From IMG/VR virus record IMGVR_UViG_2671180411_000016: a stretch of 40,851 nucleotides of DNA. The stretch is one strand, 5' to 3'. Below the pieces are notes generated by a model that did not search any database, was not told where the DNA came from, and saw only the letters and a program-made list of their open reading frames with translations. Made by a program: the position numbers and the translations under genes. Shown piece after piece: positions 24,261-26,918 of the stretch. Positions within the stretch are counted from its first letter, which is position 1; the number at the start of each line of letters is the position of its first letter. Source of the DNA: a virus (taxonomy: Duplodnaviria > Heunggongvirae > Uroviricota > Caudoviricetes).

Positions 24261-24547
24261 AAATGACCTTTCTTTCTCCAGATTTCTTGTGTGCGAAAAA
24301 CCCCTTCAGCATGCATCAGGCGCAATTCTTCTTTGGTGTAATCGCTGGTTTTTACCCGCCCGTCGATTAGATCGTGGCATGAGCTACAGGCTATCGCCGC
24401 CTGCATATCATGTGGTTTTGTCGCTGTTCCGCACGTCCCCGCCAGCCTGTAATGCGCCAGCACAGAGGTTTCGGGATTGTGATTGCAGTAGCCAGGGATT
24501 CTGATCTGGCACATCTGGCCTTTAGCCGCTTTACGTAAATTCACCAT
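24257..24547 (-). CDS. YbcO-like nin-region protein (Cys-rich, putative Zn-binding nuclease)
   Basis: 96 aa with CxxxxxxxC...C and CSSCHDLIDGR motifs; resembles remembered DLP12 YbcO. Confidence 0.65.
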   Translation of the reverse strand: MVNLRKAAKGQMCQIRIPGYCNHNPETSVLAHYRLAGTCGTATKPHDMQAAIACSSCHDLIDGRVKTSDYTKEELRLMHAEGVFRTQEIWRKKGHL

Positions 24548-25146
24548 TACGCAAACTCCAGTAGTTGTGCGGCCACATTTTCAACTTCCTCCTGAGAGGA
24601 GAATTTACGGAACAGAATCCAGTTCCACAGCACATTCAGTACAGATTTATAAACCTGCTGAAACTCGACTTCGTCCATATTCGCAAAAGCGATGGATTTT
24701 GCCCGACGCCCACGGCTACCGTCCGGATAAATATGCTCGGTGTAAAATCCGGCCTGAATGGTTACCCACTCGCGGAAAGCCTCAAACGACTTTAGCAACG
24801 CCGTATCCCGGGTTCTACGAGTCGCAACGGTGTTAAGGTATTGCTCTGCGGCATCACTCAGGGCTGGCGTGTGTTCCCGACCAACTGATTCGCACAGGTA
24901 ATCAACGAAACCAGACAGCAGTTCTCGTTCGCGAGGCGTGATCGCCCCACCGACCGGAGTCCAGTAATCGAATCCCAGTTGCAGGAGTTTGAAAAAACGC
25001 TTGTGGAATGCGTAGTTACGCACACGCTTAAAGTCTGCGTGTATCCACTCACCTATTTTGATTTGATGCAGAAAATCGCAACTCTCCGGCGTCGCCGGGA
25101 GAAGTAAACCAGAAGAGGTTTGTTTGACCAGTTGTATATGCGCCAT
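24547..25146 (-). CDS. uncharacterized nin-region protein
   Basis: 199 aa ORF, stop/start abutting the ybcO-like gene; no family confidently recognised. Confidence 0.5.
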   Translation of the reverse strand: MAHIQLVKQTSSGLLLPATPESCDFLHQIKIGEWIHADFKRVRNYAFHKRFFKLLQLGFDYWTPVGGAITPRERELLSGFVDYLCESVGREHTPALSDAAEQYLNTVATRRTRDTALLKSFEAFREWVTIQAGFYTEHIYPDGSRGRRAKSIAFANMDEVEFQQVYKSVLNVLWNWILFRKFSSQEEVENVAAQLLEFA

Positions 25147-25426
25147 TTCTCAATCTCTCGATGGCGCAGCGCAGCAGATGCCAGTTGTTCAGGCTGACGA
25201 ATAAAGTATAAATAAACTGGCTATGGTGTAAAGCCCCACATAGCATGAACAAACACTACATATCAAATAGCTGGTACAAGGATAGAAATACGACACTTAT
25301 TATTAAAAACGATTAGATAAATTACATTTTAATGTTATGCAAAAGTTCTTTTTTATCATAACATTTCAATAAAAGCATTACAGATGCAATCATCCCGTCA
25401 TCATCAATTATTTAAGGTGGTTAAAC

Positions 25427-25513
25427 ATGGAAAATAACAAGTTCGCACATCTCGCTCCTTTTTTATCCGTAATCCTTTTCGCTTGTTGTTTTATATGGGC
25501 ATTATTTTTATAA
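25427..25513 (+). CDS. 28-codon hydrophobic peptide ORF (MENNKFAHLAPFLSVILFACCFIWALFL)
   Basis: ATG preceded by AAGGTGG at a 6 nt spacing; single predicted TM helix; lies in an 0.8 kb AT-rich non-coding stretch; below the ORF-track length cutoff. Confidence 0.4.
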   Translation: MENNKFAHLAPFLSVILFACCFIWALFL

Positions 25514-25959
25514 AGTAGCCACATGATAAGTTGCTGGAATCATATTTCCCACTCAAGTCATTAACATTTGATAAGATATATCTAAAAGGACGCCTTTACA
25601 TTATTTATGCGTATATAATTTATTTATATACACAGTAAAGGTATCCTGGGAAAATATTTATCGTTAAAAAATACATCATAAATAATTAAGCTGAAATTTC
25701 AGAACACAACTAATACACACAATAAGGTTCAGTAACAGTAATCTATGTGGACTACATCGAGATTTTTTGATTAAACTTTAATAACTTATTCCTAACACAC
25801 AGAATGCATAAACTAAAAGTAAAACAAATAGTTATACGAAAAACAACCATATTTATTCTATCTTCTCCTCTAATCAACATATCAATTATGTGTTTCATAA
25901 CAGCTTGACATAACCCTCCAAAAGATGCATTTTTAATGCATGTTTTGGAGGAGGTGGTT

Positions 25960-26298
25960 ATGACACACAAGAGAATTCCTAAAGATTGGGTAATCAAACG
26001 CTCAACTCCGTTCTTCACAAAAGAGAACGTACCTTCAGCGTTATTAACACATCATAATACAGCAGCAGGTGTTTTTGGGCAGTTGTGCGTAATGGAAGGC
26101 ACTGTAACATATTATGGTTTTACTGATGAGAATGCTACTGAACCGGAGATAAAAGTAGTCATTAATGCTGGCGCTTTTGCAACAAGCCCACCACAATACT
26201 GGCACCGTGTTGAACTAAGCGATGATGCTCAGTTTAATATTAACTTTTGGGTCGCTCCAGACTTTTCGGGCGAAAAAGTCTATAGCACCAAAAAATAG
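25960..26298 (+). CDS. DUF1971-like small cupin protein (TehB-associated family)
   Basis: ORF 25936..26298; second ATG at 25960 is preceded by GGAGGAGGTGG; motif HHNTAAGVFGQL...EGTVTYYGF fits the remembered DUF1971 pattern. Confidence 0.6.
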   Translation: MTHKRIPKDWVIKRSTPFFTKENVPSALLTHHNTAAGVFGQLCVMEGTVTYYGFTDENATEPEIKVVINAGAFATSPPQYWHRVELSDDAQFNINFWVAPDFSGEKVYSTKK

Positions 26299-26327
26299 AT
26301 GATCATATTAAAAATGCTTTAACAGTC

Positions 26328-26366
26328 AGACCCGGCAGGGCTATCCCCGACGGGTCTCATTTTTGT
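26328..26366 (+). terminator. intrinsic terminator after the DUF1971-like gene
   Basis: AGACCCG...CGGGTCT stem with inner GGG/CCC pairing, followed by CATTTTTGT. Confidence 0.55.
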
Positions 26367-26918
26367 AAATATATTGGTTCTACATTGACAGGAGACTTCA
26401 ACCATAAGAAGTAATCTGAATACTTGAGCAATAAATTTACTTAAGATTAATGAGCGCACCTTGCCGGACAAAGATAAACCAAGGTAACACCTTTTTTCTA
26501 GCCAGTATGTAATCAATCAGAAAGCCGCTCCATAAGAACAACAGCAAGACAATAAATTGCCATTACAGCCGCAATAGCCAGCGCACATTTGAGAACCAGC
26601 ACGACAACCCCCTGTATTAGACGCACACCAGTCCTGATAAATATGAGGCTGTCTCGTCAGTGATTCAATACAACTATTGGGTATAGTTTCTGTGATTTTA
26701 TTCTGTAGAAATGGAACACAACAACCAGTCACCACCAGCACTTCCTTAAATGCTCTAAGTCAGAAACAAGCCAACATTTTAGTCCGCTTTGAGCGATCTG
26801 CAGACATTGCTAGCAGCCTTCTGTGTGAATTCTCAGGGAGCAGGTCGGCATAGCATCACGTTGAGGCTCTTACCCTACTTGTTCACACCAACCCTAACTC
26901 CACAGACTGATTCATAAA

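What the first reader, a model, noticed from the sequence alone, without database searches (positions are those of the whole stretch)
25147..25950. 0.8 kb AT-rich non-coding island containing a 28-codon hydrophobic peptide ORF with a strong ribosome-binding site
Between the nin-region genes and the DUF1971-like gene lies a stretch without long ORFs. At 25427..25513 a short ORF encodes MENNKFAHLAPFLSVILFACCFIWALFL, a single-TM peptide of the type seen in type I toxin-antitoxin toxins, preceded by AAGGTGG at ideal spacing. It could be a small membrane toxin with an antisense RNA partner, or a regulatory leader peptide. I do not recognise the sequence.
Basis: partly seen in the sequence, partly recalled or inferred. 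Interest (0 to 1): 0.5.

Follow-up and report, generated by a model that had tools for sequence, protein, structure and literature searches.

The report
Unannotated 28-residue prophage membrane peptide gene
The AT-rich gap holds a real, conserved but never-annotated gene for a 28-residue membrane peptide, present in about a fifth of complete E. coli genomes at the edge of a prophage slot that carries defence and toxin genes; what the peptide does, including whether it is a toxin, is not known.

Summary
Window 25147-25950 has 25-33% GC and no long ORF. The ORF at 25427-25513 (+) has the second-strongest ribosome-binding site of 36 candidate starts in the island.

The ORF is very likely a real gene.
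- Homology in about 700 further E. coli genomes shrinks to the ribosome-binding site plus the ORF.
- 172 full-length copies (18 DNA alleles, 14 peptide variants) all have 28 codons. One further copy is cut at its 5' end.
- dN/dS is about 0.1-0.2.
- The upstream side is almost always one of two nin-gene backbones. The downstream side has at least 10 different cargoes, including hok/sok, relBE, IetAS, AbiL-like genes and the DUF1971 gene.

It matches no Pfam, NCBIfam, PHROGs or PADLOC family. At 87 nt it is probably too short for gene callers.

A leader-peptide role is rejected, because the downstream genes vary and are often convergent. The type I toxin idea remains possible (about 0.3). Sister alleles have a predicted antisense promoter and terminator opposite the conserved 5' leader, but the window's own allele lacks the terminator.

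The rest of the island belongs to the DUF1971 cassette. Its promoter carries a near-consensus NsrR operator at 25922-25944.

Verdict: a new small-protein family of a known kind, of moderate interest.

The parts
25147..25950 (.). AT-rich intergenic island between the DUF1367 nin gene (-) and the DUF1971 gene (+)
   Evidence: GC is 25-33%. No long ORFs. Unannotated in RefSeq in all hits listed.
25205..25232 (-). Promoter-like site TTTACA-16-TATACT facing the nin genes, identical in front of both nin backbones
   Evidence: This is a consensus match only; no expression data.
25298..25303 (+). Candidate -10 hexamer TATTAT of the small-ORF transcript, invariant in all 18 leader variants. In locus L169 the homology begins just upstream of it.
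   Evidence: The -35 is good in type B (TTGCTG/TTGCCG) and poor in the window (TACAAG). The start site near 25310 is inferred.
25296..25342 (+). Highly conserved non-coding block (about 45 of 47 nt between allele types, more conserved than the ORF's synonymous sites); probably the -10 plus the first ~35 nt of the leader
   Evidence: Alignments.
25331..25365 (+). Leader hairpin AATGTTATG / CATAACATT with a variable loop
   Evidence: dG is -7.9 kcal/mol, z-score -4.3. Pairs are kept in all 18 variants. Changes are G-C to G-U in 12 of 18 and U-A to U-G in 1, which fit only a plus-strand RNA.
25414..25420 (+). Shine-Dalgarno sequence AAGGTGG, 6 nt before the ATG
   Evidence: AAGGTG is kept in most allele types, with variants AAAGTG, AAAGCG and AAGGTA.
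25427..25513 (+). 28-codon gene for a single-helix hydrophobic peptide, MENNKFAHLAPFLSVILFACCFIWALFL
25407..25433 (-). Antisense promoter-like site: TTTCCA (overlaps the ATG), 15-nt spacer, AATAAT. Sister alleles have a 16-nt spacer with TATGAT or CATAAT.
   Evidence: Flagged by the scanner in L003 and L006 but not in the window. Found by eye in the window.
25501..25529 (-). Second antisense promoter-like site, TTATCA-17-AATAAT, at the 3' end of the ORF
   Evidence: Weak consensus match in AT-rich DNA.
25587..25647 (.). Long AT-rich hairpin 74 nt after the ORF stop. On the minus strand it is followed by UUUUAG.
   Evidence: dG is -21.7 (+) and -23.4 (-) kcal/mol, z-scores -5.3 and -6.0. A 56-nt indel lies directly after it in a sister subtype.
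25905..25910 (+). TTGACA, a -35-like hexamer in front of the DUF1971 gene
   Evidence: Sequence. No clear -10 at 17 nt.
25922..25944 (.). NsrR-type 11-1-11 operator, AAGATGCATTT-T-TAATGCATGTT
   Evidence: 20 of 22 half-site positions match the ytfE site AAGATGCATTTAAAATGCATCTT listed in PMC5320621, Table 4. It lies inside the 17-nt inverted repeat 25915-25951.
25960..26298 (+). DUF1971 (YeaR/TehB-like) gene with the ribosome-binding site GGAGGAGGTGG
   Evidence: Pfam PF09313, E = 2e-26. RefSeq annotation.

Best explanation
The left part of the island (about 25205-25513) is a conserved module of lambdoid (Rac-like and Qin-like) prophages of Escherichia and Shigella. It is a divergent promoter region whose plus-strand arm makes a short, self-contained transcript. 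That transcript has a leader of about 115 nt with a conserved 5' block and hairpin, a strong ribosome-binding site and a 28-codon gene. The product is a single-pass inner-membrane peptide with a polar N-terminus (MENNK) and a hydrophobic helix of about 19 residues that runs to the C-terminus.

The gene belongs to the nin-side backbone and marks the fixed edge of a variable cargo slot that holds defence, toxin-antitoxin and moron genes. It points against the phage early-right (lytic) transcription. I therefore infer that it is expressed from its own promoter in the lysogen, and is opposed by convergent lytic transcription after induction.

The function I consider most likely is a small accessory membrane protein that acts in the lysogen's membrane by binding a host or phage membrane protein, for example in exclusion or membrane homeostasis, and not a toxin kept in check by its own antitoxin.

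The right part of the island (25514-25950) is spacer and promoter of the linked DUF1971 cassette, which carries an NsrR (nitric oxide-responsive) operator.

Shown: existence, conservation, coding-type selection, modular context and absence from known families. Inferred: transcript ends, membrane insertion, lysogen expression and function.
For: Distribution. Distant blastn gives matches in 1174 of 5426 complete E. coli genomes. Outside the 464 with the window's context, the match covers only window positions about 25392/25412 to 25514, which is the ribosome-binding site plus the ORF, at about 80% identity.

Integrity. 172 full-length copies, 18 DNA alleles and 14 peptide variants all have 28 codons with the same start and stop. 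The only defective copy is one cut at the 5' end by a rearrangement.

Selection.
- 31 columns vary, 17 of them at third codon positions.
- dN/dS is 0.16 (window allele vs type B) and 0.08 within type B. The syn/nonsyn contrast gives Fisher p of about 0.001-0.002.
- The chance of no ORF-destroying change in at least 38 substitutions is about 0.01.
- Replacements in the helix are hydrophobic for hydrophobic. M1, E2, N3, N4, H8, P11-S14, I16-F18, C21, W24, A25, F27 and L28 never vary, although some of these positions were fixed by the search patterns.

Context. There are only 2 main upstream contexts (DUF1367 nin genes, or rem-like plus DUF968 nin genes) but at least 10 downstream ones. These include hok/sok, hokD-relBE, IetAS, AbiL-like genes, a NACHT-like gene, a PLD gene and the DUF1971 gene.

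Transcript. In L006 a 16-bp perfect bidirectional terminator follows the stop codon by 17 nt. The leader hairpin is kept through G-U and U-G wobble changes, which only a plus-strand RNA tolerates.

Translation signal and hydrophobicity. The ribosome-binding site is the second strongest of 36 candidate starts. Mean Kyte-Doolittle hydropathy is 2.5 for residues 10-28.
Against: - There are no expression, translation or localisation data of any kind.
- The -35 of the proposed promoter is poor in the window's allele.
- The antisense frame (-1) shows an equally low dN/dS, because its third positions coincide with those of the sense frame. It is discounted only because its start and length vary (38, 58 and 42 aa) and it has no ribosome-binding site.
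- The alleles are few and closely related, and were partly selected by codon-aware search patterns.
- The leader is more conserved than a simple small-protein gene would need. That hints at RNA-level regulation, as in type I toxin loci.
- Nothing distinguishes a harmless membrane protein from a toxic one by sequence alone.
Confidence: 0.45

Rival explanations
1. Type I toxin-antitoxin module. The peptide is a membrane-damaging toxin. Its mRNA is held in check by a cis-encoded antisense RNA of about 110 nt, transcribed from the minus strand across the 5' leader. The RNA would start about 30 nt upstream of the ATG and end next to the plus-strand -10.
For: - Size, hydrophobicity and the long conserved leader with a 5' hairpin fit this class.
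- In type B relatives the scanner independently flags a minus-strand promoter overlapping the start codon (TTTCCA-16-TATGAT or CATAAT). It also flags a minus-strand terminator, CGCTTTTAATAATAAGCG followed by a T-run, at the far end of the leader. About 0.3-0.5 terminators are expected by chance per region.
- One compensatory change (G-C to A-U) occurs in that terminator stem in locus L169.
- The leader block is more conserved than the ORF's synonymous sites.
- The gene lies in a slot full of toxin-antitoxin and defence genes, usually next to hok.
Against: - In the window's own allele type the terminator stem has two mismatches and the promoter spacer is 15 nt. The scanner flags neither.
- The G-U and U-G changes in the main leader hairpin would be mismatches in a minus-strand RNA.
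- No match to the toxin families held in Pfam, NCBIfam or PADLOC, and no Rfam antitoxin RNA.
- The predicted fold of the putative mRNA is not unusually stable (z-score -0.68) and does not clearly sequester the ribosome-binding site.
- No charged C-terminal tail, and a single copy per locus.
Confidence: 0.3
2. The conserved block is a non-coding element, and the ORF is incidental. The element could be an RNA, or DNA signals for read-through or termination of early-right transcription into the nin genes.
For: - The neighbouring non-coding blocks are at least as conserved as the ORF.
- The antisense frame shows the same low dN/dS.
- Several promoter-like and hairpin elements overlap the region.
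- AT-rich DNA easily yields short ORFs rich in Phe, Leu and Ile codons.
Against: - Variation has three-base periodicity, with 17 of 31 variable columns at third codon positions.
- There are no indels inside the ORF, although the flanks have several.
- Homology ends exactly at the stop codon.
- The ATG, the ribosome-binding site and the stop are conserved in all full-length copies.
- No Rfam match better than E = 0.1.
Confidence: 0.12
3. The ORF is a leader peptide that controls the downstream DUF1971 gene through translation-coupled attenuation.
For: - Same orientation as the DUF1971 gene.
- No strong plus-strand terminator between them in the window.
- This allele type and the DUF1971 cassette always travel together.
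Against: - There are 446 nt between the stop and the DUF1971 start. The DUF1971 gene has its own TTGACA and NsrR operator.
- In most relatives the ORF is followed by convergent genes or a terminator, with no gene in the same direction.
Confidence: 0.03
4. The ORF is the leftover signal peptide of a truncated lipoprotein or spanin-like gene.
For: - Weak matches to lipoprotein signal regions: Lp6.6 at E = 0.03 and an Rz-like spanin PHROG at E = 0.009.
- One variant has FAGC, which resembles a lipobox.
Against: - The lipobox is absent from most variants (VLCC, VFCC).
- The stop position is identical in every context, and homology ends at the stop.
- Purifying selection acts on the peptide.
Confidence: 0.02

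Closest known systems
Chromosomal type I toxins of E. coli with long 5' leaders (TisB/IstR-1, ShoB/OhsC, ZorO/OrzO, DinQ/AgrB)
   Same: A 26-29 residue hydrophobic single-helix peptide, its own promoter, a conserved leader of about 100 nt or more, and a candidate antisense transcript opposite the leader in sister alleles. Like ShoB, the peptide ends in hydrophobic residues (comparison with ShoB is from my own knowledge).
   Different: No sequence similarity. No demonstrated RNA partner. The antisense terminator is broken in the window's allele. Toxicity is untested.
Hok/Gef with Sok (including prophage hokD and hokW)
   Same: A prophage-borne small membrane peptide in the same cargo region. 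In most relatives the ORF lies 100-130 bp from a convergent hok gene and next to its terminator.
   Different: Unrelated sequence. Half the length, with no periplasmic domain and no mok-type overlapping frame. It occurs without hok in the window and next to IetAS.
Small inner-membrane regulatory proteins of E. coli (MgtS, AcrZ, KdpF, CydX, PmrR)
   Same: Size, single helix, strong ribosome-binding site, and missed by annotation because of its length.
   Different: Those are chromosomal and often share an operon with their partner. This one is prophage-borne and monocistronic, with no partner known and no homology.
Prophage morons and lysogen-expressed membrane proteins (e.g. HK97 gp15, lambda Bor/Lom, SieB)
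   Same: Its own promoter and, in some contexts, its own terminator. It is oriented against lytic transcription, which is the classical moron layout.
   Different: It is not variable cargo. It is the conserved edge of the cargo slot. It is much smaller, and no exclusion phenotype is known.
yeaR-yoaG (DUF1971) promoter of E. coli K-12, repressed by NsrR
   Same: The neighbouring prophage gene is DUF1971, and it is preceded by an 11-1-11 site that matches the best NsrR sites at 20 of 22 positions.
   Different: This is a prophage copy. Binding and nitric oxide induction were not tested. This concerns the right end of the island, not the small ORF.

Membership tests
Type I toxin-antitoxin toxin (generic) | Small (under 60 aa) hydrophobic peptide with a predicted membrane helix | tested here: met
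   28 aa. Residues 10-28 have a mean Kyte-Doolittle hydropathy of 2.5.
Type I toxin-antitoxin toxin (generic) | Antisense RNA antitoxin with its own promoter and terminator, complementary to the toxin mRNA | tested here: inconclusive
   A promoter and a terminator are predicted opposite the leader in type B loci. In the window's allele the terminator stem is broken, the spacer is 15 nt, and the scanner flags neither. No Rfam family matches.
Type I toxin-antitoxin toxin (generic) | Toxicity on overexpression, relieved by the RNA | not testable with these tools
   Needs inducible expression with growth and membrane-potential readouts.
Known toxin families (Hok/Gef, Ldr, TisB, Ibs, ShoB, Fst and others) | Sequence match to the family profile | tested here: not met
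   No hits in Pfam, NCBIfam or PADLOC for four variants at E up to 10 (0.1 for PADLOC, one variant only). I did not check which toxin families each library contains.
Transcription-attenuation or translation-coupled leader peptide | A regulated gene downstream in the same direction, conserved together with the leader ORF | tested here: not met
   At least 10 different downstream contexts, mostly convergent genes or a terminator.
Lipoprotein signal peptide | Conserved lipobox [LVI][ASTVI][GAS]C followed by a mature domain | tested here: not met
   Only some variants resemble a lipobox. At most 8-9 residues follow the Cys.
Known phage protein families (PHROGs) | Significant profile match | tested here: not met
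   The best hit is E = 0.009, over 14 residues of a spanin signal region.
NsrR regulon (applies to the DUF1971 gene, not the small ORF) | 11-1-11 inverted repeat AAGATGCATTT-N-AAATGCATCTT in the promoter | tested here: met
   25922-25944 matches 20 of 22 positions. Binding itself was not tested.

The most novel reading that the evidence does not exclude
The 28-residue peptide and an antisense RNA across its conserved 5' leader form a previously unrecognised type I toxin-antitoxin family. The family would be carried by about a fifth of E. coli genomes. It would sit as a fixed 'gatekeeper' at the edge of the lambdoid defence and moron slot, where it could stabilise the adjacent cargo or act in abortive infection or prophage induction.
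Probability: 0.25. Interest if true: 0.6.

Novelty: new member of a known kind. Interest (0 to 1): 0.45.

Why it matters
A gene present in roughly 1,170 of 5,426 complete E. coli genomes has escaped annotation. Three of its peptide variants are not in the 15-billion-protein collection. Among 1.84 billion representative proteins it appears only once, as an artefactual 58-aa extension. It is another example of the small membrane proteins that annotation misses.

It is also a practical anchor. Together with the nin promoter region, it marks one fixed border of a lambdoid prophage slot. In the relatives examined, that slot carries IetAS, AbiL-like genes, hok/sok, relBE, and NACHT-like and PLD-family genes. 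Sequence lying next to the ORF in other genomes could therefore be mined for new defence systems.

If the peptide proves to be a toxin with an antisense partner, it would add a new type I family in a very well-studied species. The neighbouring DUF1971 gene with an NsrR operator suggests that this prophage also brings a nitric oxide-responsive gene into the host's NsrR regulon.

Tried and rejected
I used degenerate DNA patterns instead.
- Exact look-up of three variants in the 15-billion-protein collection found nothing.
- phmmer of a 30-aa extended translation against 1.84 billion representatives gave one hit. It is an N-terminally extended call of the same ORF.
- An Rfam scan of 24900-26600 at E up to 10 gave only chance-level microRNA and snoRNA matches.
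- Full-text searches for the peptide sequence found nothing. The supplements of the O157:H7 Sakai small-gene paper, the text of the Fozo 2010 type I toxin survey, and two hok papers also gave nothing.
- The rem-hokD intergenic region of K-12 Qin lacks the ORF. Other K-12 prophages were not checked.
- A scan for trans-acting complementary RNAs across the window with RNAduplex gave unusable output and was dropped.
- Inverted repeats between the ORF's centre and downstream sequence (I1 in the window, I1 in L003) are A-run/T-run matches and are not present in all contexts. I treat them as chance.
- The 38-aa antisense ORF at 25408-25524 was considered and rejected. Its start and length vary between alleles and it has no ribosome-binding site.
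- The species-representative genome scan, with a fairly strict pattern, found only Shigella flexneri and Escherichia ruysiae. More distant homologues may have been missed.

Full report
**1. Setting**

The window is a Rac-like lambdoid prophage of E. coli. An identical stretch in strain LD39-1 is flanked by lysis genes on one side and by DUF977, ydaF and sieB on the other. In the window the phage early-right and late genes run on the minus strand. DUF1367 (24547-25146), YbcO/DUF1364 and a DUF1133/Q-like gene lie to the left of the island. DUF1971 (25960-26298, plus strand) lies to the right. Beyond it are two minus-strand cargo genes and then DUF977 and DUF1627.

**2.

- GC falls to 25-33% across 25200-25900.
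- No ORF inside the island exceeds 38 aa, apart from two that overlap the flanking gene starts.
- The ORF at 25427-25513 encodes MENNKFAHLAPFLSVILFACCFIWALFL. AAGGTGG lies 6 nt upstream of its ATG.
- Of 36 candidate starts in 25100-26000, its predicted pairing with the 16S rRNA tail (-8.9 kcal/mol) is second only to the DUF1971 gene's.
- The island is unannotated in every RefSeq hit listed.

**3. The ORF is a conserved unit**

A near-identity search finds the whole island in about 460 genomes. A more sensitive search with 25330-25600 finds 1174 of 5426 genomes. In the roughly 700 extra genomes the alignment covers only query positions 63/83 to 185. That is window 25392/25412 to 25514: the ribosome-binding site plus the ORF, ending at the stop codon, at about 80% identity.

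Four such loci were fetched. Each has an intact 28-codon ORF, for example MENNKSAHYAPFLSVILFVLCCVWALFL.

Two codon-aware pattern scans of IMG/VR, added to the E. coli loci, gave 173 copies:
- 18 DNA alleles and 14 peptide variants, all of 28 codons.
- One copy (L170) is truncated at its 5' end by a rearrangement.

A scan of one genome per species found the ORF only in Shigella flexneri and Escherichia ruysiae.

**4. Evidence that it codes for protein**

Comparing the window allele with the commonest type B allele:
- 17 nucleotide differences give pS = 0.51 and pN = 0.13, so dN/dS is 0.16. Within type B it is 0.08.
- The other two sense-strand frames and two of the three antisense frames give 0.8-1.5 or more.
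- Over all alleles, 17 of 31 variable columns are third codon positions.
- Fisher tests of synonymous against non-synonymous change give p of about 0.001-0.002.
- About 11% of single substitutions would destroy the ORF, yet at least 38 substitution events left it intact (probability about 0.01).
- Helix replacements are conservative (A/V/T, C/L/F/G/S, F/C, I/V/A, L/V, V/I).

Two caveats apply. First, the antisense frame that shares the third positions shows the same low ratio. That ORF has a different start and length in each allele type (38, 58 and 42 aa) and no ribosome-binding site, so I discount it. Second, the alleles are few and were partly selected by the search patterns.

**5. It belongs to no known family**

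- Pfam, NCBIfam, PHROGs and PADLOC give nothing significant.
- The only hints are weak matches to lipoprotein or spanin signal regions. These do not stand up, because the lipobox is not conserved and no mature domain follows.
- Three variants are absent from the 15-billion-protein collection.
- phmmer against 1.84 billion representatives finds one 58-aa protein. It is the same ORF fused to an upstream frame. I infer that an upstream in-frame stop codon has been lost in that variant.
- With its stop codon the ORF is 87 nt. From my own knowledge, that is below the 90-nt minimum of common gene callers, which would explain why it is never annotated.

**6. Anatomy of the module**

Alignment of 18 leader variants shows an alternation of conserved and diverged segments.

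- *Nin-side promoter.* A minus-strand promoter-like site, TTTACA-16-TATACT (25232 to 25205), is identical in front of both nin backbones.
- *Leader block.* A 47-nt block (25296-25342) is nearly invariant and contains TATTAT (25298-25303). This is the best candidate -10 for the plus-strand transcript. In L169, homology with the other types begins just upstream of this element. The inferred start near 25310 gives a leader of about 115 nt.
- *Leader hairpin.* The hairpin at 25331-25365 has conserved arms and a variable loop (z-score -4.3). Its changes are G-C to G-U (12 of 18 variants) and U-A to U-G (1 variant). Those are tolerated only in a plus-strand RNA. One added pair covaries, A-U against C-G.
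- *Upstream of the ribosome-binding site.* This segment is diverged. In type B it holds a small hairpin with one C-G to U-A covariation.
- *Ribosome-binding site and ORF.*

The putative mRNA as a whole is not unusually structured (z-score -0.68).

**7. Context**

There are 2 main upstream contexts plus a few singletons: the DUF1367-type nin region, and the rem-like plus DUF968 nin region. Downstream there are at least 10:
- a convergent hok/sok locus, whose terminator starts about 22 nt after the ORF stop;
- hokD with relBE;
- IetAS, with IetS at E = 8e-300;
- an AbiL-like gene pair, and a NACHT-like/PDC-M36A gene;
- a PLD-family gene beyond DUF1971;
- IS elements;
- the DUF1971 cassette of the window.

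In L006 a perfect 16-bp bidirectional terminator lies 17 nt after the stop. The ORF is therefore a self-contained unit on the nin-side border of a variable cargo slot. It cannot be a leader peptide for any particular downstream gene.

The rem-hokD region of K-12 Qin lacks the ORF. Only 4 of about 50,700 sequenced phages carry it.

**8. Toxin or not**

For the toxin idea:
- Size, hydrophobicity and the conserved leader all fit.
- In type B loci the scanner flags a minus-strand promoter overlapping the start codon. It also flags a minus-strand terminator at the far end of the leader. Together these predict an antisense RNA of about 110 nt.
- One compensatory change occurs in that terminator stem.

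Against it:
- In the window's own allele type the stem has two mismatches and the promoter spacer is 15 nt. Neither element is flagged.
- The wobble changes in the main hairpin argue for a plus-strand, not a minus-strand, structure.
- There is no homology to the toxin or antitoxin families held in the libraries searched.

My estimates are:
- about 0.85 that this is a translated gene;
- about 0.3 that it is a type I toxin;
- about 0.45 that it is a non-toxic accessory membrane protein expressed in the lysogen;
- about 0.12 that the conservation is non-coding.

**9. The rest of the island**

Positions 25514-25950 occur only together with this allele type and the DUF1971 gene, in 467 genomes. The features here are:
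- a strong hairpin at 25587-25647 (z-scores -5 to -6). On the minus strand it is followed by UUUUAG, and a 56-nt indel lies next to it in a sister subtype;
- a weak minus-strand promoter-like site at 25702 to 25675;
- in front of the DUF1971 gene, TTGACA (25905-25910) and the palindrome AAGATGCATTT-T-TAATGCATGTT (25922-25944).

The palindrome matches the ytfE NsrR site at 20 of 22 positions. yeaR, the K-12 DUF1971 gene, is a known NsrR target (PMC5320621).

**10. Verdict**

This is a new, unannotated small membrane-protein family of lambdoid prophages. It is of a known general kind, its function is unknown, and the toxin reading is credible but unproven.

Noticed in passing
window 25922-25944 (inside the inverted repeat 25915-25951): There is a near-consensus NsrR 11-1-11 operator, AAGATGCATTT-T-TAATGCATGTT, directly upstream of the prophage DUF1971 (YeaR-like) gene. 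It predicts nitric oxide-responsive expression. As RNA, the same repeat would form a -25 kcal/mol hairpin that reaches into the GGAGG of the ribosome-binding site.
   Followed up: partly
window 25587-25647 and 25675-25702: A long AT-rich hairpin (z-scores -5 to -6) is followed by UUUUAG on the minus strand. A minus-strand promoter-like site, CTGAAA-16-TATGAT, lies about 30 nt upstream of it. Together they could give a minus-strand RNA of about 90 nt. A sister subtype has a 56-nt insertion next to the hairpin, and its inner stem changes to G-U pairs on the plus strand.
   Followed up: partly
window 25205-25232 (-): The promoter-like site TTTACA-16-TATACT and about 40 nt around it are conserved in front of two unrelated nin backbones (DUF1367, and rem-like plus DUF968). 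This suggests a dedicated promoter or regulatory site for the nin/Q region.
   Followed up: no
window 26919-27920 (-) and 27936-29027 (-): Two cargo genes encode proteins of 333 and 363 aa. Their only matches are weak: GNAT (E = 9e-4) and HEPN/RES N-terminal domain (E = 2e-4). PADLOC gives nothing for the first and only chance-level hits (E of 0.01 or worse) for the second. They sit in a slot that elsewhere holds IetAS and AbiL-like genes, so they may be an uncharacterised defence pair. Strain LD39-1 has three different hypothetical genes at the same place.
   Followed up: partly
loci L003-L006, L120, L130, L133, L159, L169, L175, L176: The slot next to the small ORF is a hot spot. It holds hok/sok, hokD-relBE, IetAS, an AbiL-like pair, a NACHT-like/PDC-M36A gene, a PLD-family gene, IS1 and IS4 insertions, and (in L176) a Hok/Gef gene just after DUF1971.
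   Followed up: partly
protein P0001 (58 aa): This is the only database protein related to the peptide. It is an artefactual N-terminal extension. I infer that an upstream in-frame stop codon was lost in one variant, which fuses an upstream frame to the small ORF.
   Followed up: yes
window 25408-25524 (-): A 38-aa antisense ORF is open across the whole small ORF and shows an equally low dN/dS, because its codon third positions are shared with the sense frame. Its start and length differ between allele types.
   Followed up: yes
window 26328-26364: A stem, AGACCCG...CGGGTCT, followed by CATTTTTG is a likely terminator of the DUF1971 gene. The simple scanner missed it because the loop is long.
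   Followed up: no
locus L170: This is the one defective copy. The ORF is cut at codon 9 by unrelated upstream DNA, while its 3' half and the neighbouring hok terminator remain.
   Followed up: partly
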